Positions 23,901 through 57,498 of a stretch of 64,000 nt of DNA are shown here, one piece after another. This DNA is from Chiloscyllium plagiosum. Its lineage: Eukaryota. Made by a program: the position numbers and the translations under genes. How positions within the stretch are numbered: position 1 is the first letter of the stretch; the number at the start of each line of letters is the position of its first letter. The DNA is taken from positions 5,480,595-5,544,594 of the forward strand of contig NC_057750.1 of NCBI RefSeq assembly GCF_004010195.1, written 5' to 3'. Below the pieces are notes generated by a model that was given only the letters and a program-made list of their open reading frames with translations, was not told the DNA's origin and searched no databases.

Positions 23901-26900
23901 TCCACTAGGATGGTGTTTAATTCAAGGTTTTTATTTTCAAACTTTATTGACTGCCATGATGAGAATTGAACCCATGTTTCCAGGGCATTTACCTGGGCCT
24001 CTGGATTACTAGTCCAATGATGCTACCACAACCTCCTTGTGCCATGGTGGCAGTGTCATCAAGGCTCCCCAAACTAATTCTCATTCTGTGAGGAGAGTGG
24101 ACCTGTACTCTCTTGAGTTGAGAAGAGTGTGTAGTGGTCTCCTTGAATCATGTTAAAAATTACACAACACCAGGTTATAGTCCAACAGGTTTAATTGGAA
24201 GCATTAGCTTTCGGAGCACTGCTCCTTCATCAGGTAGTTGTGGAGTACACAATTGTATGACACCGAATTTATAGCAAAAGTTTACAGTGTGATGTAATTG
24301 AAATTATACATTGAAAAATACCTTGATAGTTTGTTGAGTCTCTCATCTGTTAGAATAACCATGATAGTTTCACTTCTTTCATATGTAAATCACAAAACCT
24401 TTTTTTAAAAGTTACATTCTCAGGTTAACTGTAATAATTGGTGTCAGCCAGATAAGATGTTAAGATGTTGAAGGTGTTAGCCCCTGGCTTGTGTTCCTTG
24501 TCTGTGCCATAATGTTTAGACTGATTCTAATCTAAAAATGAGTTAACAGAGTCGAGTATGGATTCATGCAGTTTTTGAGCACAGTGCAATGTAACTCTGC
24601 AAGTAACCTGGTGTTGTGATTTTTAACTTTGTACACCCCAGTCCAACACCATCGTCTCCAAATCCTTGAATCATAACATTCTCACAGGATTTGACAGGGT
24701 AGATTCAGCAAGATGTTTCCTCTGGTTGGGATGGGGTCCTTGAGTTGGGCGTCACTGTTTTAGAATAAGGAGTATGCCACATAGCATAAGGAGAATTTTT
24801 TTTCTTTCAAAAGTGTTGTATTTTGGTACAACACACAAGGGTGGGGTATATACAATTAATGGTAGGGCCTTGATTTGGAGATGCCGGTATTGGACTGGGG
24901 TTTACAAAGTTTAAAAATCTCACAACACCAGGTTATAGTCCAACAGGTTTAGATTAGATTAGATTTAGATTACGTACAGTGTGGAAACAGGCCCTTCAGC
25001 TCAACACGTCCACATCGACCCTCCAGAAAGTAACCCACCCAGACCCCTTTCCCTCTGACTAATGCACCTAACACTATGGGGCAATTTACCATGGCCAATT
25101 CACCTGACCTGCACATCTTTGGACTGTGGGAGGAAACCGGAGCACCCGGAGGAAACCCACACAGACACTGGGAGAATGTGCAAACTCCACACAGGCAGGT
25201 GCTCAAGGCTGGAATTGAACCTGGGACCCTGGTGCTGTGAGGCAGCACTTAACCACTGAGCTACCGTGCCACCCCACCACCCTAAATTGGAAGCTAGTGC
25301 TTCCAATTAAACCTGTTGGACTATAAACCTGGTGTTGTGATTTGTAACTTGGTAGGACCTTGGGCAGCATTGTAGAACCAGAGGGACCCAGGAGTGCAGG
25401 TACATAATCCTTTGAAGTTTGTGTCACATGTAGACAGGGACGTTAAAAAGGCATTTGGCACACTTGCCTTCATTGCTCAATCCTTTGAGTAAAGGAGTTG
25501 GGGAGTCATGTTGCGGGTGTACAGGACAATGAGGCCTGACTTTGTCCAGTTCTGGTCATCCAGATGTAGGAAGGATACTATTAAATTGGAAAGGATTCAG
25601 AAGGGATTTATCAAGACTTGTCAACCTTCAAAGGTTTGAGTATCAAGAAAGGCTGGGACTTTTTCACCTGAGCCTAGGAAGTTGAGAGTTGAGCTTATAG
25701 AAGTTTATAAAATAATGAAGGGTATAGAAAGAGTTATTGTCTTTGTTGTCTTTATCCTAGGATGGGGGATTTCAAGACTAGGGGGCATATTTTCATGGTG
25801 AGAGGAGAGAGATTTTGAAAAAAGACATGAGGGGCAAACGTTTCACACAGCAGGTAATTCACATATGGAATGAACTTCCTGAGGAAGTGGTGGATGTGGG
25901 TACAATTACAACATTTAAAAGACATTTGGATAAGTACATGAATAGAAACGGTTCAGAGGGATATGGTCCAGGAGCAGGCAGGTGGGACCATTTTAGTTTG
26001 GGATTATGTTTTGCATGGACTGGTTGGACCGAAGTGTCTGTTTCCATGCTGTATGACTCTCTGACTCTAAGTAAATCTTTGGAATTCTCTGCCCTTAGAT
26101 GGCTGTGGAACCACAATCATTTTGTATTTTCAAGCCAGTGATTGATAGATTTCTAGATGATAATATCAAGAGATAACATGAGAAAATGGTGTTGGTGTAC
26201 ATGATTAGCCATGATGTAGAGTGGTGGAGCAGATCTGAAGAGCTGAATGGCCTACTCCTGCATTGCTTTGTTTCTACAGGTTGATAATAAACCTAGGGTA
26301 TCTAGTTCTGAGGTGAGGAATTGAACCTGAAGCTTCTGGTGCAGAGGTGGGGGACACTATCTACTGTGACATTTGATCTCTGTGGGATACCATGAGACCC
26401 TTTTCATCAGTCTGGAGAAAACTGCTTTATCTTCTACTCTCTGCTGCCTCCTGTCCAACCAATCTTTTAATTTAGTTTCTGTCCTCTCCTTAACCTGTTA
26501 AAAGGTGCCATCATTTGAGTGAGGCATTAAACCAAAGCGGCTGTATAAAATCCCATGGCATTATTATAAAAAGAACAGTGTGATCATCTGATATCCATCC
26601 CTCAACCAACATCACAAGAAGCCAGATTTATTGGTCATTTATGCGATTGCTATTTGTGGGATCTTGTTGTGCTGCCTTCTGCTTTCTTGCAGTATAAAGG
26701 TAACCATTTTTTAAAAGATAATTTGCTCTGGGCCATCCTGAGTTTGTAGAAAATGCTACAAAATGTCTGTGTAACTCCATTTATCACCTGCCAGCATGTA
26801 CCCTGTTGGGCCAAATGACATGTTCCTGCACCATCTCCTGAGCAATTTCTATTGCTGTCCCTATTGGGGAAAGAATGCACCATGGCAGAAAATAACATGC

Positions 26901-29900: not shown

Positions 29901-32900
29901 CCAGGCTTCTCCAGACCTCCCACACCGTTGAATAATTGTGTTTTTTTTTTCATTTTTCAAAATTTCAGCTGGAAGACGTAAAGGCTTCAGAGCGGAAACT
30001 GAAGGTGCGAATGAAGAACCTGACCACAGAGTTGAATTTGTACAAAAGGGGGTGAGTTCTTATCAGAATGTCAACGTACCTGCAGAAATCCCTGCCCGCT
30101 CATTCGTGAGGCTGTACCAAATTAACTCAAACCTGCTGAGGCATTTATTCTCCACATTCAGGGCTAGGGAGGAGCAAGTTATTCAATGAGCCTGTTGTAC
30201 TGTGGTGACTGGGTGAGGACAATCTGCTGAATTTCAGTGTATTACTGAGTGGAGGTTAGAAAAAACTAACAAGTATTCCCCTAGTAACCGCCTTTATGAC
30301 AGTTACCGAGGGGACGGCCTTATGTTTGGCTGTAACACTGAAGTGTGTATCTTACGAGCAAAAGCACTGCCCAATCCTGTTCATGTGTGGAGTAGTGGGT
30401 AATGTCAATGATAGTTCAGAGGCCTGTACTTTAACTGAAAGGGACGCGGATTCAAATCCAGGAGATTCAGAACTCCCCAGTTTCCAGACTCTCCAAGGAA
30501 AGTCCCCAGCTCTGGAGTAAATCTGAGATTTCAGATAGTTCTGACCTACTTACCTGAATAGTTACCCATGAGAGTTTAGACAGGCCTAGGCTTTTTTCTA
30601 ACTCATGGGCGACTTTAGAACTGATACCCGCTCCCCTCTCAATCAATCATACCAACTTTCTCTCCCAGCTAGTTTGACGGATTGGATTGAATAGCCCATA
30701 TATGTGCTGTCAATTTTCTATTTTAAAAATTATTTTGTCTTGAATTTCAATGTCATATTTGAAATAATATCTTGTTATTTACTTTTCTTAATGTATAACC
30801 ATCCTGACTGGAATTTCCCAATCTCTATGATAGAATTCTCCTGTAACGACTCGGCCCTGTACCAATAATTTCTACTCTGCAGTCCTACATGTGACTGCTC
30901 CTGTAAAACACTTTGGGATCTTTTTATTGTTAGATTCCAGTGTTTCTATTGGACACTTTTAAAATATTGCTCCCTTTTTATCCCCCAGTTCTCTACACCT
31001 AATTTTCATGCTTTTTCTCATTTTTCAGTCGCTTGACTCCAGTGGGACCCTCTCCCCAGAACCGATCAAATTTAAATCTCAGCTCCGGCCATCGTTCTCA
31101 GACCAGGACAGATTCGGCTGGCAGAGTTCGGCAGGACAGTCAGTCGGCCTTGCGGGAAAGAAGCAAGCAGTGGTCAGGGTCCCAAGAGAGGGAGAGATCT
31201 ACATCCAGAGAGAGAAGTGGCCGGTGGTCATCGTTTAGAGAGAGGGAACGGTCTTCCTCCAGAGACAGCCAGCAAAGAAATCGTTCCCGTACTCCCAGAC
31301 TGTCACCCTCTCCAGCAGGTACAACTTCTCCAAAAGAGAAAATGGTTACGAGTTCAAGTGAGAATCATTCAGTAGTGCAGCACTTTCATAGGCCATTGAG
31401 CCTAGACCCAGAGTGCATTATTTCAGAATAAGGGATCAAATGTTTCAGACAGAGAAATGAATGAATGTCTTCTAAGTATGGTAGATCTGGAACTCTTTAC
31501 CACAGAGGCTGGGTCATTAAGCATATTCAAGGCCGAGGTAGACAGATTTTCAATCAGTTACAGATTTGAGGGTTATGGGGAAACAGCAGGAAAGTGGAGT
31601 TGAAGATTATTGACCATGTTCTGAATGATTGAGCAGATTCAATGGGCTTGAATGGCCTACTTCTGCTTCTGTGTCTTTTGAGCCAATTGAGTCAGTGCTG
31701 GCTTTTCCAAAGAACAATCCTGTTCATTTTGCTCCCCTTTAACTGAAAGGGACGCAAATTCAAATCCAGGAGATTCAGAACTCTCCAGCTTCCCAGACTC
31801 TCCGAGGAAAATCCCCAGCTGTGGAGTAAATCTGAGATTTCAGATAGTTCTGACCTACTTACCTGAATAGTTACCCATTCTCTTCCTTATTCTTTTGAGT
31901 ATTTGTTCAGGTTCTTCTGAAAGTTATTCTGAAATCAGTATCCAACACACAACATTCCAAATCCTAATTATTAAAAAAAATTTACCTCATGTTTCTGGTT
32001 CTTCTGCCCAGCCAGTCTCCTAAATCTTTTATCTTTGGCAATCCCTCTTCAGCCTTTGGAAACTGCTTCCTTTTATTTTCTCAGTCTAAACTCATGAATT
32101 CATGTGCCTTGATGAACTCTCCTTAACTTTCTGTGCTCAAGAGGGAAATCTCCACCTTCTGTAGTCTATCCCCATAATTGTTATGCCTCATCCCTGGCAG
32201 AACTGAGGATCTTTGTTTATTTAGTTGGGCATTGCGTTAACACCTTCCTTATGCTGTCTCAGCAAGGCAACCTTTGCGCTTTACGAATGTGTACATTGGT
32301 GTATACAATATCATTTTGGGACATCTTGTGTCTGTATCATGCAGTTCCTTAGGCCAGGCATATACAGTCAAACAGCAAAGAAATGGACGCTTCGATGCAA
32401 CCAGTCCATGCCAACTACAGTGTTTAAATTGGCACAAGCCCATAGGCATAAGTTAGCAATAAAAGGTTTTTTTCCCAAAATAACTGATGGAATAAAAACT
32501 ACTGCATTAAATGCGTCTTATGTAGACCAGTGAGTTCATAGCTAAAATGTTTCTATTGTATATGCACAAAGCTGGAACATTTTAATGTACCCTGTTGTCA
32601 TTCTCTTTCCTGTATCCCAGATCTAAATCCCAGATTTGAAGTAACAATTACAATAGCAGTCACAATATTATCCCTATTATAATATCTTCTGAACTTTGCA
32701 GCTTTAAGCTAGAGATTCCACATTTGTTTTCAATTAATTTATCTCTGACTTTTTTTTTCTTCCCTTCAGGTTGAGTATTTACTCGTTGCCCATATCAAAA
32801 CTGCTGTCTCTACTTTGCATTCTCCTTCAGACCCATCTCCCTCATCTGCACCCGCATTCTTTACCTCCTCACCACATTTGCAGTCACCCGTGGATTCTGC

Positions 32901-35900
32901 CTCTCCAGTTTACGGGGATGATCTTGCTTTTGGTTGATTTTGGAGGCAGGGCAATACTGCCCAAGCCTTCTGAAGGGACAGGCCCTGTTTATTGGAACTA
33001 TGGGCAACTCTTTCCCATCCTAATTGCTCTTGAACTAAGTCATTTGCTAAGGCCATTTCAGAGGTCAGTTATGAGTCAACCACATTGTTGTTAGTCTGAA
33101 TTCAGATGCCCGCTAGACCAGGTAAGGATGATAGATTTCCTTCCTCAACATTAGTGAACCAGATTGATTTTTATTTTCGTTGATAATTGTGTTTCGTATT
33201 ACTGAGACCAGCTTTCAACTCCAGTTTTATTAATTGAACCTGCGTCCCCAGTCTGGGCCGCTAGTACCACCATCCCCATCTCCCCCAGCAGTGTTGCTCT
33301 ATGGTATTAGAATTTAGGTGGGGAATCAACCAATCAACTAAAGAACCCAGAGAACTCTAGAAGCACTGCATTAGGATGCTCGATGTTGTTCAGAAACAGA
33401 GCTTCATTGGTGGGATATAGTCAAACTCTTCTTGTTCTCCTCAGGAACTAGGCAAACCCGTTTCAACCCCACGGCATATGTGCACAACAAGGAGCAGAAG
33501 CAGAAGGAGACAGAGCAGAGAAAGTAAGTTATTAAAAGGTGAAATTGCAAAATAAAAATATTGAATAACATGACCTTAGTCTTTACGTCACAGCTTGCAG
33601 AGATTCCTGGTAAGTGAGACCACTTTTTACTGTTATGGTGATGTAGATGTGCACTGGTTCTGTATTTCTGTCTTGTTGGATATATTTTTAGATTCCCAGT
33701 ATTACAGTATAACTCTAGAAAAGGATGTCTAATGCAGTCGGTAGTGCATAGTGTTACTCTGTCTCTGGGATGTAAAGGGATGGACTCTGCAGAAAGAGGC
33801 TGAGGGGGGGATAACAGCTTTTGAAATCTAGATGCGGCCAAGGATTCCAAGAATTAGCTGAATGGACAAAAGGACCAAAGGGTGGGTTAGATGAAGAGTG
33901 GCATGTTCAGGAATCAAAAGTACAATTAGAGAGAGAGCGAGAGAGCCATGTTCCAACATTGGAAACGAAAACCTGACCGCTTTGTCCTGGCAACAATTGA
34001 AGCAGAAATTGAGGTTAAAAAGAGAAGGGGAATCAGTCAAATTGGATGGGTGGATAACATTGAGACATGCACTAATGAAGGTGTGAAGAAAGCCCATGGA
34101 GAAACTAGGTAAAGCCACTGGTATTGAATGTACTTTGCGAATTCTAGCTAGGTTGGTTCAGTCTCTTGCAGGTGCCCTGGGCTCTGTGAGGAATCCAGGG
34201 AGAGACTCCACTTTAATGTGGATGACCTCAGTATTTTCTTATTCTGTGATTACCCACTATTGCACAAATCTACCATCAAAACTTCTTCCCTCAGCAATCC
34301 TGAGGGGCTGCAGTGATTCAAGGGTTGAATTTAATGCCAAGTTGTAAAAAATCAACTTTGTACTTCTTGCAAAATACCCGATTACTAGCATCCTGAAATA
34401 AAGGCAAGTACTGGAAGCCCTCGGGTGCCATGTGCGGAGAGAGAAGCAGTCAACGTTGTATGTTTTGCCAGAACTGAGGGGTTGGTTGAGGGATAGAAAT
34501 TGTCCACGCCATTGCTGAGAACTCCCCTTCCCTTCAAAATAGTTGCTTTGGGAGATTTTATGTTCAACCGGGAGGGTAGCCAAGGACTTGATTTTTCACT
34601 TCATCAGAAAAATGGTGCCTCTGACAGTGCTGCACTGCCTTTGACAAATAGTGCATGGGCTTTGACAGTATGGACCTTGAGCTGCAGTCACTGATATGGG
34701 ACCAAATTTCATGTCTGAGAAGTGTGTGCGCTGAACTCTGAGAGATACCTGTCCAGAGAAGGAGTTTGCACAGAGAAAATACATCAACACTGACCTGAAG
34801 AGCAAATCTACCGAGGAAGATACAAAGGGAAGATTCGACAGCTGCCTGGTTTTGAAATTTGAATTTTTCAGTAAATCTTATTTGGGGGTTTTATTGGATT
34901 AGTATTATAGAAGGGAAAATATAACATAGATTAGAGAAAGGAGTTGTAAATAGTTGTTAGATAATTATTCTCTGTTATACTTTAAGAAATAAGTTGTTAA
35001 TTTTTACTTTAAATAGTTCTTGGCCTCTCGAATTTTCACAGATTACTGCACGGGATAAATTTTTTTGTGTTTTAAATTAAGCCGAAGGATTTGCCCCGTG
35101 ATGTAACCCTATCTCCCTCCATCTCCTCCACTCTGTCTCCCTCTCTCCCCTCTGCAGCTTGAGGAGGATCTACAGGGGCATGAACCTCCTGACCGATGAG
35201 GAACGAGGAAGGTCGAAATCCAAGAACTGCTCCCGCGAAGGCAGTGCCAGCAAAGTACAAACAAGTGGTCACAGTCGTGGGCGAAGCTCATCGGGTAAGG
35301 GTATGGGCTGATCTTGGAAAAGCTGACAATCGGGTCCCACTTACACTGAGCCTGAATGTCAGGAAATTTTTCTACAACCAATTTGACCAAATTCGGGGGA
35401 CGAAATGAACCAGAATATGTTAGAAATTCTGTTAGCTTTTGTGAAAATGTTGGGAAGACTGAGAAATCTCTCCCACTTCAGAACTCTCGTCTTATGCAGT
35501 TTTGATGACGTTTTTAAATGTAATTAATTGGCTACCTCAAATTGGCCAGTAATACAATGAGAACAGGATGGAAGCAACGTGTGGTTATAGCTGGAAGTCA
35601 TGGGAATTTGCTGTATGGGTTGCATTAGAGATACAAGTAGATCTTGAGTGTACCATAAAGATCCTTTTCTGAACCTTCTTGGGAACATAAGGTATATCGG
35701 CACAATTAGGCCATTCGACCCATCATGCCTGCCCCATCATTCGACTATGGCTGATATGTTTCTCAACCCTATTCTCCTGCTTTTACCTTGTAACCCTTGA
35801 TCCCCTTACTAATCAAGAACCTATCCATCTCTGTCTCAAAGACAGTCAATAACTTGGCCTCCACAACCTTCTGCAGCAATGGGTCCCACAGATTCACCAC

Positions 35901-38900
35901 ACTCTAGCTGAAGAAATTCTTCCTCCTCTCAGTTCTAAAGGGTTGTCCCTCCACTCTCAGGCTGTACCCTTGGATCCTAGTCTCTCCTATGAGGGGAAAC
36001 ATCTTCTCCACGTCCACTGTATCCAGGCCTCTCAGTATTCTGTAAGTTTCAATCAGATTGCCCCCAGTCCTTCCCAAGTGCAGACCCAGACTCCTCAAGC
36101 CCCTTATCCCTGGGATCATTCTTGTAAACCTCCCCTGGACCCCCTCCAAGGCCAGCACATTCGTCCTTTGGTAAGGGGCCCAAAACTGCTCTCAATATTC
36201 CAAAATTGACCAGAGCCTTATACAGCCTCAGCAGTAGATCCGTGTTCTTGTATTCTAGTCTAGTTGGTAGTGTTTGTCTGAATTCAGTGCTTGCAGCACA
36301 GTTTATTTGGATAATAAACTGATGATCAGCTTGTCAAAGTTGGTGATGGCCCTAAAGTAAACACAACGGCTGAGTCAGAGAATGCAGATGACAACATGTG
36401 AGGAATGATGAGAGAATGTTAAGCACTTTGACCTTTGAAGAGAAGTATTAAAGGCACCTAATAGATGTAGATGAAATATTAACTTGTTTGAAGAAAAATC
36501 TGCCAGGTCTTGGGGTTTGGGAGGGCAGGGAGTGTGTATCCAACGCTTGGAGATGTGCAGGAAGGAAGAGAGCAGGAGTCTGTGTGAAGTTATCTTTGCG
36601 TGTGTGTGTGTGTATACGCACACACACACACCCCCAATCCATCGATGCAGCTTGAGCATAGGAAGCGGAGAGGTGACTTTATATCATGAGGGCATAGACA
36701 AGGTGAATAGCAAAGGTCTGTTCCCCAGGGTAAGGATGTCCAAAAGTAGAGAACATTGATTTAAGAACATAGGGAAAGGTTTAAAAGGCATCTGAGGGGC
36801 AACGTTTTCACGCAGAAGTTGGTGCATTTGTTGAACCAAAGCCATTTGGACAGGTACATTGATAGGAAAAGTTTAGAGGAATATGGGCCAAACACAGGCA
36901 AATGGGACCAGTTCAATTTAGGAGACCTGGTTATTATGGACAAATGGATAGGTTAGGCTGAAGTGCCCTATGACTCAGTGTCCCTTCTGCACCTCTCTGG
37001 TTCAGGAGTGGGTTGATTCCTCTGCGGTGCTGAAACTTTATTGCTGGAACAGCACAGCAGGTCAGGCAGCATCTAGGGAACAGAAGATTCGACGTTTCGG
37101 GCACATGCCCTTCTTCAGGAATGAGCAGAGAGTGTTCAGCAGGAGAAGATAAAAGGTAGGGAGGAGGGACTTGGAGGAGGGGCGTTGGAAATGTGATAGG
37201 TGGAAAGAGGTCAAGGTGAGGGTGATAGGTCGGAGTAGGGTGGAGGCGGAGAGGTCAAGAAGAAGACTGCAGGTCAGGAAGGCGGTGCCGGGCTGGAGGG
37301 ATTCGGCTGAGACAAGGTGGGGGGAGGGGGGATGAAGAAACTGGTGAAGTCCAAGTTCATCCCCTGCGGTTGGAGGGTTCCCAGTCGGAAGATAAGACGC
37401 TCCTCCTCCGACCGTCGCGTTCTTGTGGTTTGGCGGTGGATGAGTCCAATGACCTGCATATCCTCGGTGGAGTGGGAGGGGGAGTTGAAATGCTGTGCCA
37501 CAGGTTGGTTGGGTTGGTTCGTCCGGGTGGCCCAGAGGTGCTCTCTGAATCGCTCCGCAAGTAGGCGGCCTGTCTCCCCAATATAGAGGAGGCCACACCG
37601 GCTGCAGCGGATGCAGTAGATGATGTGGGTGGAGGTGCAGGTGAATCTGTGGCGGATATGGAAGTTTCCCTTGGGGCCTTGGAGAGAAGTGAGGGGGGAG
37701 GTGTGGGCGCAAATGTTGCACCTCGTGCGGATGAAAGGGAAGGTGCCGGGAGTGGTGGTTGGGGCGGTGGGGGGTGTGGATCTGACAAGGGAGTAAGTTG
37801 TCCCTGACCCAGGTTTCTCACTCTCCAACTGAATTCTAAGTTCTACCATGTTATGATCACTGTTCCCTAGAGGAATTCTTTTACTCTGAAATAATTTATT
37901 AGATCTGTCTGTTTACACATCATCACATCCAAATTGGCTTGATCCCTGTTTGGATGCAAAACATAGTTCTAAGAAAGCAACTGTCTTGAATATGCTTTGA
38001 ATTCTCATTGTGACTACCTTTGCCAATTTGATTTTCCCAATGTAAATGAAAATTAAATTACCCATGATTAATGGACTGCCTTTTTTACATGTCTTCACAC
38101 CTGATTTATTCTTTGTCCTGCAGAATAGTACTGTTAAGAAGTTTATAAGCTACTCCCACTAGTGTCTTCTTTCCCTTAGTATTTCTTACGTTCACTTGCA
38201 TGAATTTTGTATCATCCAATTTTAGATTGTTTCCTGCTATCATATTTATTCCATCTCATTAACAAAGCTACCTCACCACCCTTCCCTTTCTGCCTTCCAT
38301 TTAGAAAAGTCTCATACCCCTGAATCATTGGTTCCTAGCTTTGATCGTCTTATAACCACATCTCCATATGGCTATAAGATCGTACCTATTAACTTGTTAT
38401 TATGCCATTATTGTTCTGAATGTTATACGCACTTATGTAAAAAGCCATATTTTTAAACCATATTTTTCTCTTTGTTATCTTCTTTAAGCTTATACAGACC
38501 TTTCCTTTCAGTCCCATGCAGAATTATTATCAGAGTAGTTGTCCTGGAATTCTGCCATATCCTTTTGCTTTGTAAGCATATGCATCTCTCCTTCACCCAC
38601 CAATACACTCCCAAGTCAGTTTAAAGCCCTCTCTACAGCCCTAGTTATTCATTTTTCCAGGTTATTGGTTCCAGGAAAGTTCAGGTGAAGCCTGTCCCAA
38701 TGGAACAGCCTCCCTTCTACCCTAGTGCCAGTACCTTATGGATTGAAACCCATTCCTGCCACACCACTCTTTAGCCCATATATTTAACCTCTTAACTTTA
38801 TTTACCATGTCCCAGTTTATCTCTGGCTGTGGTAGTAATTCTGAGATGATTATTTTGGAGGTCTGTTTTTACAAAGGCTTCCAGCTGAACCTGATGATAA

Positions 38901-41900
38901 ATGGATCCAACCCCTCCATCTCCCACCCCAAGTACCTTAAACCTAGCACAAGGTAAGCAACACAGACTGGGGGTTTGGGTCTGGGTGGGATGCTCTTCAG
39001 AGGGTCAATACAGATATAATGGGCTAAATGGCCTCTTTATGCACTGTAGGGTTTTCTATTCTATTATTCTATATGTGGTAATATAATAGATGAGAAACAA
39101 AGAATAGTGTTTTTATTGCCATGGTTGCTTTACTTACTGAATAATAGTAGATACCTGTTAAATAAATGAAGTCCATACAGCTGTAAGTTTTTCTACTAAA
39201 ATTACTGTAGTATGTCTGAAACTGTATAGCTTGTTGATGATTTCTGCTGAGCAACATTGTTTTTGCCCAAAAGCAACCTACACCACCACCCAGTTCTACA
39301 CTTCCCTCGGAGCATGAGGTTTCCAGAAGCAGTATTTATCCATTATTGGAATGGATCACACATTAGTAATTATGTCAGTAATTCCGAGGGATGAATAATA
39401 TACTGTGGTCTTTGTCTGCATGGTGCTTAATAAAGCATGCACTGAATTTTGAGAAAGCCATACAAGTGGCTCAATCAGTCTTTAAAAATATGGTAGCATG
39501 GTGCTTACTGCTTGCATGAACTAGTTTGTCCTTTGCCAGTAATCACTTCTTACAAAGAGGTATCTTATTTGTTATTTTAAATCAAATCTGCTGTTGTACC
39601 AAATTAACCAGCGATATTGTAACCCCACTCTGCCTTGGAAGTATTAATATATATTTAATGTCTGACGGTATTTCCAGATGAAATTCAGTATTTTGGCCAT
39701 GTGCAAGGATCCTTGCCAATTCTATTTGATTGTTTTATTTTCTCATTATTTCAGTGGGATTTTTTTTTCTGTTGTTTATTTCATTGGTTTCATTCTATTC
39801 TTGCAAATTTATTTTCAAGTCCACAAGTCTTTAGTTAAGTTCTGTAACTGATATTTGAATGACATTACCTGTAACAAAGTATATTGTTAAATAAATGTTT
39901 TGTCATGTAATAAGTACCTTTTTATATGTCCATGCTGTATATGGTGCAGTTTAAAAATGTCCTTTAACAGTGTCCATTTTCTATGTACACAACCAACTCA
40001 TGAGTTTGGAGTTTGTTCTCAACCTTTTCAACATTATTAGTAATGAGGTGCAAGTCTAAGTTGATGTGATTCATTTGCTGTCTTTCCCCTTTCCCTTTTG
40101 ATGGACAAAGGACCAAAATTCCACTTAAAAATTCCTTGTAATCCAATTGATGCTGAGGGCTCACTGCTTGAAAATAATGTTCCTCCTTTCCAGGCACAGC
40201 AAATTGGCGCACCAGTTCATGATGTCATCCTTCAGTTTGATATATAGAACTTTAATGAAATATTCCTATCTGGTTACTTTTGCTCTGAATTTTAATGGTC
40301 TTTACAAATGTTAATATATAGCTCTACAAAGATTTCAGTGAGTCCCTCTCTCCTCCCTACCTTTTATCTTCTCCTGCTGAACACTCTCTGCTCATTCCTG
40401 AAGAAGGGCATGTGCCCGAAACGTCGAATCTTCTGTTCCCTAGATGCTGCCTGACCTGCTGTGCTGTTCCAGCAATAAAGTTTCAGCTTTGATCTCCAGC
40501 GTCTGCAGACCTCACTTTCTCCTTGATGATTCCTCTGCGGCCCTTGTGATGTTACTGACCTTGTTGCATCTCCTATTGTGTAGCGGAATTTCACCGGAGC
40601 CGATTCTCCTCCGCAAGCTCACTCAGTGATTTTGAAGATAGCAGAGGACATGCCAAGTCAAGGTAGATATTTGACTCCGAGTGACCAGTGTTGTCAATCG
40701 CTTTGTTTAATGAATTGATTTTAAAGTTCTCTGGGCTGTTTGTGTGATCTCCAAATTAAGTTGCTCCTACCACCAACAATCACTGTTTGTGTGGGGTGGG
40801 GGAACCTGAAAATCTCCAACATGTCACAGGACCATAGGCTGCTGTCTCATTAGAGAAAGATGGCTGTGGATGAATTCAACCTAAGGATCGCCACATCTCT
40901 GGCAAAGTTGAGAAGACAAAGTCTTTGTGGTGTCTTCAGCCAGTACAGAAATGAATCTATTTTTGTCATCAGTTTGCATCATCAACCCACTTGGTTGTTT
41001 GACCACTCCAGCTTGCTGTGTCATTTAGTAAGGTCATGGCTGATCTAACTGTGGGCCTCAAGTTTTCCTGCCTGTCCTTTGTTAAAGATTGGTCTAATTC
41101 AGCCCAGAGTATGTTTACCAAACCAGTCTCCATTGCTCTCTGCTCTGGATGAGAATTCCAAAAAGGGGAGAGAATGGTCTCGTGGTACTAGCACTGAACT
41201 GTTAATCCAGAGAAATCCAGGGACACAGGTTCGAATCCCGCTACAGCAAATGGTGGAATTTGAATTCAACAATAAATCTGGAATTAAGAGTGTAATGATG
41301 ACCATGAATCCATTGTCGATTCTCGGAAAATCCATCTGGCTCACAAATGTCCTTTTAAGGAAGGAAACTGCCATCCTTACCTGATCTAGCCTACATGTGA
41401 TTCCAGTCCCACAGCAATGTGGTTGACTCTCTGCTGCCTTCTGGACAATTAGCAATGGGCATTAAATGCTGGCCTAGCCAGCAATGCCCTCCTCCTATGA
41501 ATGAATTTTTTAAAAATATTAACAACCTCTTTTGAGAGAAGAGATCCATTTTCATCTTCTACAGGAGACTCCTTATCTTTAAAGTGTGCCCCCACTTGTA
41601 AATATTTGCCATGAGAGAAACCATTGTCCCCAACAACCTGTTAAGTTCAATAAGTTCACTTTGTATCCAAACACCCAACAGCTTGATCGGTCCTCTGTCA
41701 TCAACCCCTGGTGCGGTGTGGTTTAGTATTCCAGCCTGATACCCTACTGACAATTGTACAATGTCTAAATAAAACCTCTGCACAGCTCCGGTTGTGAGTG
41801 TAAGACTTAACTCTTCAAATAGTGGTAGAGTTATCTCCCATGTCTACCTGAGCAGGTAGGCAGGGCCTCAGTTTGATCTCACATCTAAAAGATGACATTT

Positions 41901-44900
41901 CTAGTCATGTATTGCTTCCTCAGTACTGCACTCAGATTAGATGCTGTGAGGCTTGGACCCATGGCCTAGCAACTTGGAAACAGGAGTGTTCCAGCTGCAA
42001 AGATGCACTGTGACTGACTGACCAGCTTTTGACTGTGGTCCCAGATATTGTTAAAACATCAACCACAATCAGAAATCTGTAGTGACACACCAGTGTCCCA
42101 GTGATTGTAAAGGGTCACACTGTATGTTACAAGTAACCTGCCTTTTCTTTCTACCTCAAGAAAACTTACCGTGAACTAAACTTTCATAGAACTTGGATGT
42201 GTACATTGAATCTGTATTTTAATAACAATTGCAGGTCAAGGGTGAAAGAGCAGGGGAATACAACTAACTAGATAGCTCCGTCAGAAAGTTCAAGCACAAT
42301 TTAGTTAATGGCCTTTGTGTTTAAGATGCTTTGTGTCAGATTCCAGGTTTACCTGTTCTGAAGAAGGGTCACTGGACTAGGAACATTAACTCTGCTTTCT
42401 CTCCACAGATGCTGCCAGACTTGCTGAGTTTCTCCAGCAATTTCTGGTTTTCTTTCAGGTTTATATGTTTCACTGGTCAGTCCTGATTTATTTGACCACT
42501 CAGTATAATTCAGGACACTCGCAGCACAGATGAGGAGTTGCAGATTTAATCACTCACTCTTGTTGAAACTTTACTAAAATATCCAGCAGTCTGTAACTAG
42601 TCTAAGAATAATGTTTTTTTTAATTTTGCTCCTTGCTCCCCCTCCAATAACAGATTGCAGAGAAGCAGGAAACCTAAACGGCCATTGGGATTGGCATCTT
42701 GGAGCAGTCCAAACTTGGTGAGTAGATTCCTGATCAACGGAAAGCCAGAATCCCACAAGTTATGTACCCTGTAATTTATAGAATGATTTTGCTTTGAACT
42801 CTGTCCACCAGTCAAACCATTCTCTACTGTGGACCATGTCTGAATGTGCTGCCGAAAACAGCTCTCATTGTCTCAGGATGACACTATTTCTAAAGGTTAA
42901 ATTTCACAGTAGATAGTAAGAAACATTTGCAGTTTTATAGCGCCTTTAACAATCTCAGGATGTCCCAACTTTACAACTGATCATGTACATTGGAAGTGCT
43001 GTCACAGTTGTAATGTAAGGAACAGGGCTCACAGCACGCTCCCACAAACAATGATCATTCAACTTCTTGTATAGTGACGCTAATTGAGGTATAGTCCTGA
43101 TGTTGACTCTTTGTGAGACGCACTTGTAAATTTCATCGCCTTCTCTCTGCTGTTCCTTCCCCATCTTTAGAGTCATAGAGATGTACAGCATGGAAACAGA
43201 CCCTTTGATACAACTCATCTATGCCGACCAGGTATCCCAACCTAATCTAGTCCTATTAGCCAGTAATTGGCCCATATCCCTCTAAACCCTTCCTATTCAG
43301 ATGCCTTTTAAATGTTGTTATAGTTTTAGATTTAGACTTTATCGGCACATGTACTGGTTAGGCCACTTTTGGAATGCTGTTCTAATCTCCCTGCTATAGA
43401 AAGGATGATGTGAAACATGAAAGGGTTCAGAAAAGATTTACAAGGATGTTGCCAGGGTTGGAGGGTTTGAGCTATAGGGAGAGGATGTATAGGCTGGGGC
43501 TGTTTTCCCTGGAGCATCAGAGGCTGAGGGGTGACCTTATAGAGGTTTATAAAATCATCATGAGGGACATGGATAGGGTAAATAGTCAAGGTCTTTTCCT
43601 TGGGGTAGGGGCATGCAAAACTAGAGGGCATAAGGTTAGGGTGAGAGGGGAAAGATATAAAAGGGACCTAAGGGGCAACTTATTCATGCAGAGGGTGGTG
43701 CATGTATGGAATGAGCTGCCAGAGGAAGTGGTGGAGGCTGGTACAATTACAACGTTAAACGGCATCTGGATGGGTATATGAATTGGAAGGGTTTAGAGGG
43801 ATATGGGCCAGGTGCTGGCAATTGGGATTAGATTAATTTAGGAATATCTGGACGGCGTGTACGAGTTGGACCGAAGGGTCTGTTTCCGTGCTTTATGACT
43901 CTACTCAAGTACCGGAGTACTGTGAAAAATTTTCAATGTCACCACAAGTTCCACTCTTAGGTACAAGCTGCTAGGTACAAAAACGTAAGAACAAGGTAGA
44001 AAGAAATAAAGAAGAAAGTTAAAAGTTAAACATTACAGTCACTCTTAGCATTAAGTCAAAAAATAGAGAAATTAAGCTAAAACTTTAACCATTACAATCT
44101 ATCTTAAATGCTTAGCCATGCTGGGACCACACTTAGTACAAGGACTCGATCTTTGGCACAAATGTAAGTGGACGGTTCAGTTAGGTGTGGGTGACAGACC
44201 GAATGCAGTCTCTCTTGGCACCAGTCCATTTCCTCCCTCCTGAGCCAGAATTCAAAATCCAACATAGTCTTGGTCCTGAGATGGCAGATTTTGAGAGAGC
44301 ATACTGATGCTTGAAAGGAATGAATCTGTAGACCATCTAGAAAGGGAAGGGAACTGCAGCTAAATGGATCGAACTGGAGAGAGAGGCTGAGTGGCCTCCA
44401 TTGTGCTGTGATTCAATGAAGTCTCAGCCTCTTTGTTTTTTCCAGCCTCAAAGAAAACCAAAAGCAAAGAAACGTTTAGCCAGCACCCCAACTAAACAAA
44501 ACAAGGTATCTGACAAAGGTAAGCACATGATTCTATACAATGTAATAGTTCCTTGCACTGAACATCAGCGCGTTTAACATATTACAACATTCCAAGTTGC
44601 TTCATTGCAATAAAGAATTAAGTATTCCACCATCTCATATGGTCAAACATAGGGTCAACGGTGTAGGTTTGACATCTTGACATCAAAGTGGAGAGGGTTT
44701 AGGGAGGGAATTGCAGAGTTTAGGGCCCAGGCATTTGAAGGCACGGAATGATTAAAATCTCAAGAGGCTGGAGTTAAAGGAGTGCTGAGATCTCGGATGG
44801 TCATGAGCCTGGAGGAGGTTATAGAGATTAGGCCTGGGAAGGATATGAATACAAAAGTGAGGATTGGAGAACTGCAGTGTTGCTTTACTGAGAGCCAGTG

Positions 44901-47206
44901 TCGGTTGGCGAGCATAGGGATGATGGTGGAGTGGAATTTGACTTGGACAGCAGTGTGAGAGACCAGCCAAAACTGCATCGGAATAGTCCACTCAAAGTGG
45001 CAAAGGGATGAAGGACACTTTCAGTAGCAGGTGAGAGGAAATAGGAGAAAAGTCAGTTGATGTTTCAGGAATGAGAAGAAAATCTTGAGCAGAAGCCTAA
45101 CTTTGAATCAATGTTACTCAGCTTGCGAACATTCAGTCACCAGGGAGAGGGATGGAGTCAGTAACTAGGGAATCTGGTCTCAAGCAGGAGCTAGAAACTT
45201 TTCTCCCCAGTGTTAAATTGGGCTGGAACCTCTCCCCAGTGTGAAGTTGGAGGAAATTTCTGCTGCTTCAAAGCTGGATGTTGGACAAGCAGCCTGATCA
45301 TCTTTTGGCTAAGATTAAAACAAAATCCCAGAGAAACTCCACAGTTTAGCTTTAGCATGCTTGCCTTTATTGTTCACACCTTTGAGTATAAGAGTTGGAA
45401 CATTGAGGTTGTACATGATGTTGGTGAGGCCTGTTCTGGAGCACTGTGTGCAGTCCTGGTCGCCCTGTTATGAGAAAGGACTTTGTTAAACTGGAGAGGG
45501 TTCAGAAGAGATTTACCAGGGAATGGAGGGTTTCTGTTATAGTGAGAGTCTGGATCTGCTGGGACTTTTCTCACTGGAGCGTAGGGGGTTGAGGGGTGAC
45601 CTTTGTAGAGGTTTATAAAATCATGGGCGAATGGCAGGTGTCTTTTCTCTAGGGTGGGGCATTTCAATACTGGGGGCATACTTTTAAGGTGAAAGGAGAA
45701 AGATTTAAAAAGACATAATGGACAATTTGTTTTTTTACACAGAGGGTAATCTGTATGTAGAATGAGCATCCAGAAAAAGTGTCAGATGCAAGTACAGTTA
45801 CAATGTTTAAAAGTACATGAATAAAAAGTGTTTGGAGGGATATGGTCCGAGTGCGGGCAGGTGGGGCTAGTTTAGTTTGGGATTATGGTTGGTATGGGCT
45901 GGTTGGACCGAAAGGTCTGTTCCTGTGCTGTTTTACTCTATGGTATTGGAGAGAGAAACGTTTCAAGTCCAGTATGATTCTTCTTCAGAGCTTATCAGTT
46001 TGAGTCACACTGTGTTCTTCACAGATGCTACCAGACCTGCTCAGTTTCTCTGTCACTTCCTGTATTTATGTAAGTTTTCCAATATCTGCAGCATTTGGCT
46101 TTTATTTGAGCGATAACTTCAGCAAGTGAACAGTTGAAGGGGTGATGGTGGGTGCCGTTGGTGTCAGTGTGAAATGTGTTTTTGCCAAAGGACAGCGTGT
46201 GGATGAGAAATGGGAGGGGATTGAGGATAGATTACAGCGTGCCACAGAACGGAAGGAGAAAAGCATTCAGGTGGGGAGTGCCTGAATCATAGAGGGAGCC
46301 CCCTAGGTGGTGAAATATCTCTTAAGCTCATTGTAGATCAGGAATACTGGTTTTGTGCATCTTACAAATAATGTACAAATTCGGAGCAGTAGGCTATTCA
46401 GTATGATCATTGCTGATTTGATTGTGGTCTCGGCTTCACTTTCCTGCCTACCTCCAGTACACTTTGACCCCATCCGCCCCCATTGCTATTAGGGGAAGAC
46501 GTCCATAGATTCAGACCCTCTGAGAGTCAACGTTCCTCCTTATCTCCACCCTTTGTTTTTAAACTGCATCCCCTAGTTCCAATCTCTCCGTCAAAGGGAG
46601 ACACCTTTTTTTGGCCCGGACCAGTCTGTTCAGGATCTTGTATGTCTCAATAATGTCACCTCTCGTTCTCTTAAAATCGATCGATACAGGCTGAACTTAA
46701 TCCAACCTTTTCCTCGTACATTAACTGCCAAGAGTGAACCCTCTCTGAGCCGCTTCCAATACAATAATGTCCTAAGGAGGCTGAAGCTGTACACAGTACT
46801 CCAGATGTGGTGTCCCCGACCCCCTGTACGCCTGTAGCGAATCATGCCGACATTTACATTCCATTCCTCTTGCTATAACCTGAACCCCTGATTTCAGCCC
46901 CACTGCTGGGTGCAAGATTCCTGTTGGAGAGCAAGAAGAACCGGGCGAAGGAGCCGTCGGCCGTGCAGATGTGGTGCGGAAACTACCTGGCTCAGCAAGT
47001 GTGCAAGCAGAGGAACAAAGTAGTGTTTATGTGTTTAGCACAACTCTGATACCGAGTTGGATTTCCAAAGGTGGAATCGTCTAAAAGCCTTTCTTCCCCC
47101 ACTCCCTCCAGAAAATTATCTAGACTCGTGCGACCTTTCTGAAATCGATGCCAGGCTCAACGCGTTGCAGGAGTACATGGAGAAGCTTGGCGCACGGACC
47201 GAGTGA
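14811..47206 (+). CDS. CCDC61: Coiled-coil domain-containing protein 61 (VFL3 / SAS6-like centrosomal protein), 13 coding exons, 1662 nt, 553 aa
   Basis: Exons 14811-14958, 17181-17263, 19802-19962, 22909-23061, 26932-27148, 29969-30051, 31029-31318, 33445-33523, 35158-35294, 40584-40662, 42654-42717, 44446-44518, 47112-47206. All introns are GT-AG with consistent phases. The translation matches recalled human CCDC61 motifs (YVFRG, QWRGEF, THKTGNFKQF, KRYLILIYSVEFDRIHYPLPLPY, RFNPTAY, EIDARLNALQEYM). Confidence 0.95.
15809..16134 (+). mobile_element. HE1-type SINE
   Basis: Same head and tail motifs. Confidence 0.85.
17181..17263 (+). CDS. CCDC61: CCDC61 coding exon 2
   Basis: ttgttccag acceptor; YIEDVTHKTGNFKQFSIFCSMLESAITK; donor gtatga. 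Confidence 0.93.
17350..17990 (+). mobile_element. Degenerate CR1 3' fragment
   Basis: Similarity to the other CR1 ORF2 C-terminal and 3' UTR copies in the window. Confidence 0.7.
19802..19962 (+). CDS. CCDC61: CCDC61 coding exon 3
   Basis: tttttcag acceptor; SSESVTLDLLTYADLELLRNRK...KRYLILIYSVEFDR; donor gtatca. Confidence 0.95.
20528..20915 (+). mobile_element. HE1-type SINE 3' fragment followed by a near-full copy
   Basis: (aatct)n tails at about 20602-20620 and 20898-20915. Confidence 0.8.
22909..23061 (+). CDS. CCDC61: CCDC61 coding exon 4
   Basis: cctgcag acceptor; IHYPLPLPYVGKPDPATLQKIIRSLKEEL...RRLRA; donor gtgagt. Confidence 0.95.
24152..24662. mobile_element. Non-autonomous Penelope-like element (second family) with inverted termini and a hammerhead-like motif
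   Basis: TSD TCCTTGAATCAT 24140-24151 and 24663-24674; minus-strand CTGATGA-AGGAGC-AGT-GCTCC-GAAAG at about 24208-24233; inserted in a CR1 fragment. Confidence 0.65.
24873..25349. mobile_element. Palindromic Penelope-derived mini-element interrupted by an HE1 SINE
   Basis: Near-TSD TGGTAGG(G/A)CCTTG 24860-24872 and 25350-25362; inverted arms ccaggttatagtccaacagg / cctgttggactata. Confidence 0.6.
24949..25274 (-). mobile_element. HE1-type SINE
   Basis: Reverse copy with (agatt)n tail. Confidence 0.85.
25363..26068 (+). mobile_element. CR1 3' fragment
   Basis: WNELPEEVVDVGTITTFKRHLDKYMN; tail atgactctctgactct. Confidence 0.85.
26932..27148 (+). CDS. CCDC61: CCDC61 coding exon 5 (coiled coil)
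   Basis: cccttcag acceptor; FEKLLQEKQELEVMILQLQEQ...YRQVLDE; donor gtgaga. Confidence 0.92.
29969..30051 (+). CDS. CCDC61: CCDC61 coding exon 6
   Basis: aatttcag acceptor; LEDVKASERKLKVRMKNLTTELNLYKRG; donor gtgagt. Confidence 0.93.
31029..31318 (+). CDS. CCDC61: CCDC61 coding exon 7 (Arg/Ser-rich)
   Basis: tttttcag acceptor; RLTPVGPSP...SRERS...RLSPSPA; donor gtacaa; phase 2 to phase 1 fits neighbours. Confidence 0.88.
33445..33523 (+). CDS. CCDC61: CCDC61 coding exon 8
   Basis: ctcctcag acceptor; TRQTRFNPTAYVHNKEQKQKETEQR; donor gtaagt. Confidence 0.9.
34700..35107 (+). mobile_element. Probable LTR 3' fragment abutting the exon 9 acceptor
   Basis: AT-rich U5-like segment ending ...ccccgtgatgtaac; identification by resemblance only. 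Confidence 0.35.
35158..35294 (+). CDS. CCDC61: CCDC61 coding exon 9
   Basis: Long polypyrimidine tract ending tgcag; LRRIYRGMNLLTDEERGRSKS...SRGRSSS; donor gtaagg. Confidence 0.85.
35685..36260 (-). mobile_element. CR1 (second subfamily) 3' fragment
   Basis: LEGVQGRFTRMIPG...NLIETYRILRGLD. Confidence 0.8.
37087..37122 (-). ncRNA. Minimal hammerhead motif, inverted identical copy
   Basis: Exact reverse complement of 40394-40429. Confidence 0.6.
37274..37794 (-). mobile_element. Penelope-like retroelement (Neptune-type) C-terminal GIY-YIG endonuclease fragment
   Basis: RCNICAH...FTCTSTHIIYCIRCSRCGLLYIGETGRLLAERFREH...VAQHFN...EERLIFRLGTLQPQGMN; uninterrupted frame. Confidence 0.9.
37800..38970 (-). 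mobile_element. Old CR1 fragment (endonuclease region) within the Penelope cargo
   Basis: Degenerate CKKGSPLIMGN.NF endonuclease-like motif at about 37913-38098. Confidence 0.55.
40394..40429 (+). ncRNA. Minimal type I hammerhead ribozyme motif in the Penelope terminal repeat
   Basis: ATTC-CTGAAGA-A-GGGCA(TG)TGCCC-GAAAC-GTC-GAAT: stem I ATTC/GAAT, core CUGANGA and GAAA, stem II, palindromic ACGT stem III, GUC cleavage triplet. Confidence 0.6.
40584..40662 (+). CDS. CCDC61: CCDC61 coding exon 10
   Basis: Branch-point-like tactgac, tgtgtag acceptor; EFHRSRFSSASSLSDFEDSRGHAKS (human SFRSRCSSASSCSDLEDF); donor gtagat. Confidence 0.88.
42654..42717 (+). CDS. CCDC61: CCDC61 coding exon 11
   Basis: taacag acceptor; LQRSRKPKRPLGLASWSSPNL; donor gtgagt; phase fits. 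Confidence 0.8.
43168..43905. mobile_element. Two CR1 3' fragments (- then +)
   Basis: ERVQKRFTRMLPGLEGLSYRER...WNELPEEVVEAG. Confidence 0.85.
44446..44518 (+). CDS. CCDC61: CCDC61 coding exon 12
   Basis: ttttccag acceptor; PQRKPKAKKRLASTPTKQNKVSDK; donor gtaagc. Confidence 0.82.
45350..45942 (+). mobile_element. CR1 3' fragment
   Basis: Similarity to other CR1 copies. Confidence 0.75.
47112..47206 (+). CDS. CCDC61: CCDC61 terminal coding exon
   Basis: ccctccag acceptor; NYLDSCDLSEIDARLNALQEYMEKLGARTE then TGA. Confidence 0.93.
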
Positions 47207-57179: not shown

Positions 57180-57436
57180 CCCCACTAGTTACCTGATGAA
57201 AGAGCAGTGCTCTGAAATCTAGTGCTTCCAAATAAACCTGTTGGATTATAACCTGGTGTTGTATAATTTTTAACATTAGCTGAAAATGTGTTGCTGGCAA
57301 AGCGCAGCAGGTCAGGCAGCAGCCCAAGGAGCAGGAGAAACCCTGCTCCTTGGATGCTGCCTGACCTGCTGCGCTTTTCCAGCAACACATTTTCAGCTCT
57401 GATCTCCAGCATCTGCAGTCCTCACTTTCTCCTAGA
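57180..57436. mobile_element. Penelope terminal fragment with hammerhead-like core plus an adjacent palindromic mini-element
   Basis: CTGATGA at 57193 with stem AGAGC/GCTCT and GAAA; long hairpin 57279-57398 with the same tail as 40488-40526. Confidence 0.6.
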
Positions 57437-57498
57437 TGACTTTTCACATTATCCAATTTTAATTTAATTTGCATTACTGTATGGCAACACTAGATGGC

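What the first reader, a model, noticed from the sequence alone, without database searches (positions are those of the whole stretch)
37014..40540. TSD-bounded 3.5-kb composite Penelope insertion carrying about 2.5 kb of unrelated cargo
Seen: a perfect 14-bp direct repeat TGATTCCTCTGCGG (37014-37027, 40527-40540) brackets three parts. These are a minus-strand Penelope 3' end with an intact GIY-YIG frame (37029-37794), about 2.55 kb of non-Penelope, AT-rich DNA with an old CR1 remnant and a SINE piece (37795-40340), and a plus-strand Penelope terminus (about 40341-40526). The termini share 138 bp of 100% identical inverted sequence, and only the right one keeps a 39-nt tail (40488-40526). Established: Penelope-like elements insert with inverted pseudo-LTRs and a short asymmetric tail. 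Inference: the whole block arrived in one recent event, so a Penelope pair moved host DNA like a composite transposon or by transduction. The cargo contains repeats far more decayed than its identical ends.
Basis: partly seen in the sequence, partly recalled or inferred. Interest (0 to 1): 0.8.

Follow-up and report, generated by a model that had tools for sequence, protein, structure and literature searches.

The report
Shark retrotransposon insertion carrying host DNA
In an intron of a shark gene, a Penelope-like jumping gene appears to have inserted with about 2.5 kb of old host DNA from elsewhere caught between its two ends, a kind of DNA copying already known from rotifers and here carrying no recognisable gene.

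Summary
The anatomy is real. An exact 14-bp direct repeat encloses two head-to-head Penelope-like (PLE) 3' ends, identical over 138 bp, one tailed, with 2,546 bp of non-PLE DNA between them, in the intron after coding exon 9 of a carpet-shark CCDC61. Two cargo-free inverted insertions of related PLEs in the window also show 14-bp duplications, so the repeat is a family signature. The middle looks imported: it has the lowest GC and CpG of any same-size stretch in the window, its old CR1 is cut at the left junction with no continuation nearby, and neither arm has its own duplication. Best reading (0.72): one event in which both nicked strands primed a PLE cDNA and one cDNA ran on into host sequence (template switch or read-through) before the ends were joined. 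This is a capture, not a demonstrated composite transposon. Later repair-driven replacement and misassembly are not excluded; donor and empty site were not testable. Corrections: the element has the Neptune/Nematis-type linker, its first linker cysteine is lost, and the arms differ by 4 nt at the inner end. PLE capture of host DNA between terminal repeats is published for Adineta vaga; nine searches found no vertebrate case.

The parts
37014..37027 (+). Left copy of the 14-bp target-site duplication
   Evidence: Exact, unique pair, not extendable; 14/14 vs null maximum 12 in 500 pairs
37028..37794 (-). Left arm: 5'-truncated PLE 3' end without tail, 3' end pointing outward; 37028 is a mismatched first base
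   Evidence: CpG-rich (31 CpG in 766 bp, o/e 0.58)
37274..37794 (-). Open frame for the RT-EN linker and GIY-YIG endonuclease; first Cys of the linker motif changed to Phe at 37733-37735
   Evidence: best relatives Chiloscyllium punctatum (73-79%) and Rhincodon typus (60%)
37095..37118 (-). Minimal hammerhead-ribozyme-like core in the left pLTR
   Evidence: Pattern scan for CTGAnGA, 4-bp stem II, GAAA; no Rfam match; cleavage not tested
37795..40340 (.). Cargo: 2,546 bp of non-PLE DNA, GC 0.361, CpG o/e 0.11; no donor copy in the window; no recognisable host exon
   Evidence: composition, self-BLAST; no protein support
37795..38875 (-). Decayed CR1-type LINE remnant (end of an esterase-like ORF1 and the APE endonuclease of ORF2), cut off at the left junction, where its last 39 codons run in frame into the PLE ORF
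   Evidence: tblastn of P0130 (Pfam Exo_endo_phos) over residues 56-238, none for 239-339 anywhere in the window; ORF1 part only weakly supported (GDSL-like lipase, E 0.32); 5' limit judged by eye
38964..39086 (+). 3' piece of a tRNA-headed SINE
   Evidence: 68-82% identical to nine other window copies; a fuller copy near 59.8-60.1 kb shows the head
39087..40340 (.). Unclassified AT-rich part of the cargo, T-rich on the + strand
   Evidence: GC 0.340 vs minimum 0.370 in 28 unmasked chunks; (T-A)/(T+A) +0.138, p 8e-5
40341..40488 (+). Right arm: short 5'-truncated pLTR, 3' end pointing outward; 4-nt CTCT insertion at 40346-40349 relative to the left arm
40398..40421 (+). Minimal hammerhead-ribozyme-like core in the right pLTR, on the CCDC61 sense strand
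   Evidence: only stem II appears in the centroid fold
40489..40526 (+). 38-nt PLE tail, on the right arm only
   Evidence: Same length and register as the tail at 57399-57436
40527..40540 (+). Right copy of the 14-bp target-site duplication, 45 nt upstream of the next CCDC61 exon
35156..35295 (+). CCDC61 coding exon 9 (upstream neighbour; 3' end approximate)
   Evidence: tblastn of P0093 and P0095
40586..40663 (+). CCDC61 coding exon 10 (downstream neighbour); protein continuous across the intron

Best explanation
One recent PLE retrotransposition event made the whole 3,513-bp insert. The PLE protein nicked both strands 14 nt apart (inferred from the duplication). Each 3' end primed reverse transcription on PLE RNA at one of the two internal start sites, giving a tailed right arm and a tail-less inverted left arm (both-strand cutting and the two start sites are shown in vitro for another PLE; inferred here). 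One cDNA then continued into 2.55 kb of host sequence from another locus, and the two 5'-truncated ends were joined by host repair (inferred). I slightly favour a template switch of the short right-arm cDNA onto an intron-derived RNA or DNA at 40341-40349, with end-joining at 37794/37795 (about half of this probability). The other half is read-through from a donor locus where a truncated PLE unit lies directly downstream of the cargo (5' transduction). The result is an inert dispersed duplication of old host DNA inside a CCDC61 intron.
For: Exact 14-bp duplication at the element ends. The same length and register occur at two cargo-free inverted insertions, 13/14 at 18.8 kb and 11/14 at 57.3 kb. 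Arms show 0 differences in 138 bp. Neither arm has its own duplication: best 7/14 and 8/14 near the inner junctions. Cargo GC and CpG o/e are lower than in 1049 of 1049 overlapping and 22 of 22 non-overlapping same-size stretches outside the block, and lower than 28 of 28 and 15 of 15 repeat-masked chunks for GC. The CR1 is cut at the left junction and its continuation is not in the window. CCDC61 is continuous across the intron, which is 5,290 bp with the block and 1,777 bp without, against 977-3,870 bp for the other 11. The 4-nt CT slip at the right junction and T-richness of the cargo on the + strand fit a switch by the right-arm cDNA onto a sense intron. Precedent: PMC3846280 (host DNA between pLTRs with duplication and empty allele), PMC11167929 (both strands cut and extended, two RT starts), PMC11702581 (third segments and templated genomic DNA inside twin-primed L1 insertions).
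Against: No donor, no empty site and no reads were seen. The left arm's ORF carries changes at positions conserved in shark relatives (9 columns in the 18-protein close set, one of them the junction codon) while the outer 138 bp are identical; this needs an already aged template, and later replacement or misassembly explain it equally well. The + strand T-skew is also what CCDC61 introns 1-7 show (+0.06 to +0.15), so it fits in-place DNA too, although the rest of intron 9 is +0.018. The compositional test rests on 22 independent stretches (z -2.95 for GC, only -1.8 for CpG). Two other adjacent minus/plus terminus pairs (11.2/11.5 kb, 15.3 kb) showed no duplication above 10/14. The 57.3-kb 11/14 is within the null range (47 of 500 reach 11) and counts only because of its register, chosen after the fact.
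Confidence: 0.72

Rival explanations
1. Two steps: an ordinary inverted PLE insertion came first; its palindromic centre later broke and was repaired by copying from another locus where older PLE copies flank the cargo (ectopic gene conversion).
For: Explains identical outer 138 bp together with a damaged inner ORF and a 4-nt difference at the inner end of the right arm. Plain inverted insertions exist in this window. Fragility of long inverted repeats is recalled knowledge.
Against: Needs a donor with two head-to-head copies of the same subfamily and a right-side exchange that leaves no difference in 138 bp. The two plain inverted insertions here have persisted without cargo.
Confidence: 0.11
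2. A pre-assembled cassette (arm-cargo-arm) exists elsewhere and was copied as a unit in trans, like the NRPS gene between pLTRs in Adineta vaga; this is the reader's composite-transposon reading.
For: Published precedent with pLTRs as cis signals (PMC3846280). A damaged, non-autonomous left arm fits mobilisation in trans.
Against: In the rotifer case the gene lies between direct pLTRs; here both arms point outward, which is what two separately primed cDNAs give. It only moves the origin of the structure back one step. No second copy in the window.
Confidence: 0.07
3. Assembly artefact: the assembler left this locus through one PLE arm, crossed another locus that has two head-to-head copies, and came back through the other arm.
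For: The assembly is not gap-free (464 N at 60335-60798). Inverted PLE structures are known to trouble assemblies (PMC8557442). It would explain foreign composition and inner-arm differences.
Against: Needs two compensating misjoins, one through a repeat of only 186 bp, that land on the correct 14-bp duplication.
Confidence: 0.07
4. The middle is native intron DNA; two independent PLE insertions, with or without a local inversion, bracket it.
For: T-skew on the + strand like other CCDC61 introns. A minus-strand CR1 3' end lies at 35678-36260, in the same orientation as the cargo CR1.
Against: It cannot give identical outer 14-mers, with or without inversion; neither arm has its own duplication; composition is out of range; the middle of a CR1 ORF2 that would join the two CR1 pieces is missing.
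Confidence: 0.03

Closest known systems
Penelope-mediated capture of host DNA in Adineta vaga (Pen3a-NRPS; PMC3846280, main text read)
   Same: Non-PLE host DNA of kilobase size framed by PLE terminal repeats and a target-site duplication. The paper also mentions a few non-coding sequences captured between solo pLTRs with duplications, and 0.9-1.5 kb host spacers in Pen1.
   Different: There the gene lies between two direct pLTRs plus one inverted pLTR, the duplication is 8 bp, the empty allele was found and the cargo is a gene. Here the cargo sits at the centre of the inverted structure between two outward-pointing truncated arms, the duplication is 14 bp, the element has the Neptune/Nematis-type linker, the host is a vertebrate, and the cargo has no recognisable gene. 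The orientation of the paper's 'few other cases' is not given in the main text; supplements were not read.
Ordinary inverted PLE insertion with a one-sided tail (PMC8557442 passages; PMC11167929 main text)
   Same: Head-to-head 5'-truncated arms, 30-40 nt tail on one end, hammerhead-like core in the pLTR; two cargo-free examples in this window with 14-bp duplications.
   Different: The arms normally abut; here 2,546 bp of other DNA separates them.
L1 twin priming, templated insertions and 5' transduction (PMC11702581 passages; PMC13174262 abstract and section 13)
   Same: Both target ends extended by RT, discrete 12-18 bp duplications, extra segments from a second RNA or from genomic DNA at the internal junction.
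   Different: Different enzyme (APE vs GIY-YIG), poly(A) priming, and non-overlapping inverted pieces in L1; here both arms copy the same pLTR stretch and no poly(A) is present.
Composite (DNA) transposons (recalled)
   Same: Passenger DNA between two inverted copies of an element, one outer duplication.
   Different: No transposase, arms are truncated cDNA ends, and no evidence that the unit existed before this insertion or can move again.

Membership tests
EN-containing Penelope-like element | C-terminal GIY-YIG endonuclease with CCHH motif | tested here: met
   Pfam GIY-YIG 23.2 bits vs cut-off 22.6; C102, C105, H124 and H146 invariant in the 9-sequence alignment
EN-containing Penelope-like element | PLE-type RT in the same ORF as the endonuclease | tested here: inconclusive
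   RT is absent from this truncated copy; relatives P0105 and P0106 carry RVT_1 plus GIY-YIG matches, RVT_1 below the curated cut-off
EN-containing Penelope-like element | Inverted 5'-truncated pLTR arm and a 30-40 nt tail on one end | tested here: met
   definition from PMC8557442
EN-containing Penelope-like element | Target-site duplication | tested here: met
   14/14
EN-containing Penelope-like element | Hammerhead ribozyme motif in the pLTR | tested here: inconclusive
   Core pattern present in both arms; no Rfam hit; free folding gives stem II only; minimal forms are described in PMC4209133
Neptune/Nematis clades | CX2-5CxxC linker between RT and endonuclease | tested here: inconclusive
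   Family has it (93 of 106 homologues with the first Cys); this copy keeps CxxC but has Phe at the first Cys. Presence in the family argues against Penelope/Poseidon in the narrow sense (PMC8557442)
Neptune/Nematis clades | RT phylogeny separating Neptune from Nematis | not tested
   No RT in the copy and no named reference set was held
PLE-mediated host DNA capture (A. vaga type) | Unrelated host DNA inside PLE repeats and one duplication | tested here: met
PLE-mediated host DNA capture (A. vaga type) | Empty allelic or orthologous site with one copy of the duplicated sequence | not testable with these tools
   No shark genome collection was available
PLE-mediated host DNA capture (A. vaga type) | Donor copy of the cargo elsewhere in the genome | not testable with these tools
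   None in the 64-kb window; rest of the genome not available
PLE-mediated host DNA capture (A. vaga type) | Cargo between direct pLTRs, as in the NRPS case | tested here: not met
   Arms are inverted and point outward
Composite transposon | Both elements flank the cargo before the move and the unit recurs | not testable with these tools
   No second copy in the window
Composite transposon | Two complete or near-complete elements as ends | tested here: not met
   Arms are 767 and 186 bp truncated 3' ends without RT

The most novel reading that the evidence does not exclude
In sharks, two-ended PLE priming routinely bridges its two cDNA ends with kilobases of unspliced host sequence. PLEs would then be a general, overlooked source of dispersed, intron-retaining duplications in cartilaginous-fish genomes, readable by a fixed signature (14-bp duplication, tail-less inverted arm, tailed arm). 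The donor junctions of many such events would show directly whether PLEs copy sense or antisense RNA or DNA, which is an open question of the PLE mechanism.
Probability: 0.25. Interest if true: 0.7.

Novelty: new variant of a known kind. Interest (0 to 1): 0.42.

Why it matters
How PLEs finish an insertion and why they keep introns is unsettled (PMC3846280, PMC8557442, PMC11167929). An insertion with foreign DNA trapped between the two cDNA ends marks where the ends were joined and, once the donor is found, which strand and which molecule served as template. It also extends PLE capture of host DNA from a rotifer to a vertebrate, as far as nine literature searches show (open-access and preprint text only). 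This single case carries no recognisable gene and leaves the CCDC61 coding exons intact, so its own biological effect is probably small.

Tried and rejected
Local donor: self-BLAST of 35500-42500 and of the whole window found only the SINE piece elsewhere. Host exon in the cargo: six-frame Pfam scan, 0 of 6 frames with a family (it also missed the CR1 part, so it is insensitive); nine short cargo frames gave only two sub-cut-off hits. Two minus-strand frames of 88 and 86 codons are mildly unusual (37 of 1000 resamples give two such) but had no support: the PDB hit of one is summed 5-bit matches to a designed repeat protein, the other had E 0.86, and Atlas scores were 0.82 and 0.88 with low recognition. 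Independent insertions or inversion: no inner duplications. Other long-range duplication-flanked pairs: none above the null among 55 pairs; 20 of the 22 profile hits were used, the two with E above 0.5 dropped. Rfam: 5 weak hits, none relevant. Tandem repeats: none in the block; the single tRNA call is at 23951-24044. PDB search for a CCDC61 exon failed (wrong frame, no hit); identity came. No chimeric CR1-PLE protein was evident among 92 near-length hits, of which 11 were aligned. Cluster membership of P0093 could not be looked up, so the species stays undetermined. PMC9977147, PMC12910113 (passages) and bioRxiv 10.64898/2026.07.22.740005 (first of five parts) had nothing on cargo capture in what was read.
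Full report
Setting. The window holds CCDC61 on the + strand. A 142-codon frame at 31003-31428 found 11 CCDC61 proteins, the best from Hemiscyllium ocellatum at 98%. tblastn of that protein and of the white-shark one placed 13 coding exons between 14811 and 47203; clean exon matches to the first were 89-100%. An OPA3 exon lies on the minus strand near 53.3-53.6 kb. The best PLE relatives are from Chiloscyllium punctatum and Rhincodon typus. The host is therefore a carpet shark or close relative; the species was not determined. The block lies between coding exons 9 and 10. The protein is continuous across that intron, so no CCDC61 exon is inside the block or lost. The intron is 5,290 bp with the block and 1,777 bp without; the other 11 are 977-3,870 bp.

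Observation. TGATTCCTCTGCGG occurs at 37014-37027 and 40527-40540 only and cannot be extended. Inside it the left arm (37028-37794, minus) and the right arm (40341-40526, plus) both point their 3' ends outward and match exactly over 138 bp. Inward of that match the right arm has four extra bases, CTCT, and then seven more bases that agree with the left arm. Only the right arm has the tail. Both arms hold a minimal hammerhead-like core; Rfam does not detect it and free folding shows only stem II. Minimal, poorly active PLE hammerheads are described in PMC4209133 (passages).

Is the 14-mer a target duplication? A profile built from window copies found 22 PLE-type termini; 20 were paired in all 55 outward-facing combinations. 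This block scored 14/14 and an inverted pair at 18.8 kb 13/14; 500 random pairs reached at most 12. An inverted pair at 57.3 kb scored 11/14. That is within the null range (47 of 500), but it lies in the same register as this block, with the same 38-nt tail. Two other adjacent pairs (11.2/11.5 kb and 15.3 kb) scored 10 or less. So 14 bp is the signature of this PLE family here, and inverted arms with a one-sided tail are its normal product. At both 37.0 and 57.3 kb the right copy begins with TGA directly after the tail, so the first three bases may be priming microhomology; this was not resolved.

The element. The frame 37274-37912 is open and matches GIY-YIG. Its first 39 codons are CR1, not PLE; the in-frame fusion is probably chance. 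The family has the CX2-5CxxC linker that marks Neptune and Nematis (PMC8557442, passages and section 15). This copy has Phe at the first Cys, where 93 of 106 homologues have Cys and none has Phe. It differs at 5 of 46 well-conserved columns, which is not extreme among the homologues, and three of the five are shared with one or both Chiloscyllium proteins. In a close set of 18 proteins there are 9 columns where at least 80% agree and this copy differs from both Chiloscyllium proteins. If such changes had arisen after insertion, at 1-2.5% per arm, the chance of no difference in 138 bp would be 0.06-0.001 (the rate is my rough estimate). Either the template was already aged, or these are species-level features, or the inner part of the arm came later from an older copy.

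The middle. 37795 to about 38875 is a decayed CR1: a protein with Pfam Exo_endo_phos aligns over residues 56-238 in several frames, and its residues 239-339 match nothing in the window. The ORF1 part has only a weak GDSL-lipase hit and no Pfam hit; its label is partly recalled. The remnant has 4 CpG in 1,081 bp against 31 in the 766-bp arm. A SINE 3' piece follows. The rest is unclassified, with no supported protein. The middle has lower GC and CpG o/e than all 1049 overlapping and all 22 non-overlapping same-size stretches outside the block, and the GC gap stays after repeat masking. With 22 independent stretches this is moderate evidence. No donor lies in the window. Neither arm has its own duplication. 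Against import: the unclassified part is T-rich on the + strand, like CCDC61 introns 1-7, though the rest of intron 9 is not.

Mechanism. Shown here: the anatomy, the family's 14-bp duplication, the misfit of the middle. Shown elsewhere: a PLE protein cuts and extends both strands and starts at two internal RNA sites whose spacing equals the tail (PMC11167929, first two of four parts); L1 insertions primed from both ends can hold a third segment from another RNA or from genomic DNA (PMC11702581, passages); 5' transductions exist for L1 (PMC13174262, abstract and section 13). Inferred: both nicks primed PLE cDNAs, one ran on into host sequence, and repair joined the ends (0.72). A switch at the right junction fits the CT slip and the strand skew. 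Read-through from a source locus fits two identical arms made from one aged unit: in PMC11167929 the template needs ORF sequence beyond the start sites, so such a source would be a truncated unit heading a partial tandem. The sequence alone cannot separate these. Rivals: later ectopic repair of a palindrome (0.11), copying of a ready-made cassette (0.07), misassembly (0.07; the window has a 464-N gap), native DNA between two insertions (0.03).

Comparison and novelty. PMC3846280 (first four of five parts; supplements not read) reports an intron-containing NRPS gene between Penelope pLTRs with an 8-bp duplication and an empty allele, a few non-coding captures between solo pLTRs, and host spacers in Pen1. 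PMC6431247 (passages) reviews this as PLE transduction. So the kind is known. What differs is the geometry (cargo at the joint of two outward-facing truncated arms, not between direct repeats), the clade and the vertebrate host. Nine searches listed no vertebrate or shark case. They cover open-access papers and preprints only, I saw listings for most hits, and one search returned only unrelated uses of the abbreviation among the 25 of 57 shown. The unread supplement of PMC3846280 may hold an inverted-geometry case.

Verdict. A real, well-bounded PLE insertion that most likely captured 2.5 kb of non-local, non-coding host DNA in one event. It is a new variant of a known kind, unproven without donor, empty site and reads. 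Interest 0.42.

Noticed in passing
window 18814-19001: Cargo-free inverted PLE insertion with one-sided tail and a 13/14 duplication of 14 bp; used as control.
   Followed up: yes
window 57264-57450: Cargo-free inverted PLE insertion, 38-nt tail, 11/14 duplication in the same register as the block.
   Followed up: yes
window 15270-15405: Inverted pair of another PLE-type terminus family with no detectable duplication (10/14 or less).
   Followed up: partly
whole window: 22 PLE-type termini at E up to 1 in 64 kb, most of them single and not in inverted pairs.
   Followed up: partly
window 37795-37912: The cut CR1 endonuclease runs in frame into the PLE linker and GIY-YIG, giving a 212-codon chimeric frame with an ATG in the CR1 part; probably chance, antisense to CCDC61.
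   Followed up: partly
window 37029-37166 and 40350-40487: A perfect 138-bp inverted repeat in CCDC61 pre-mRNA, ending 98 nt before the exon 10 acceptor, with a hammerhead-like core on the sense strand; it could affect splicing or be edited.
   Followed up: no
window 40179-40344: The cargo's right end has an acceptor-like site near 40193 and GTGAGT at 40337-40342 across the junction; all three frames between them hit stops, so no clean exon.
   Followed up: partly
window 39072-39335 and 39967-40224: Two minus-strand frames of 88 and 86 codons in the cargo, mildly above chance, no protein support.
   Followed up: yes
window 24233 (minus) and 57193 (plus): A different repeat with a hammerhead-like core (CTGATGA...GAAA), not picked up by the PLE terminus profile.
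   Followed up: no
window 46897-47203: The Hemiscyllium isoform X1 C-terminus maps to 46897-47046 while the white-shark C-terminus maps to 47111-47203: alternative or mis-predicted last exons of CCDC61.
   Followed up: no
window 57910-60990: AT-rich tandem arrays at 57.9-58.8 kb and 60.8-61.0 kb, a 464-N gap at 60335-60798, and similar CR1 text on both sides of the gap; possible local assembly problem.
   Followed up: no
window 23951-24044: ARAGORN tRNA-Thr call, probably a SINE head.
   Followed up: no
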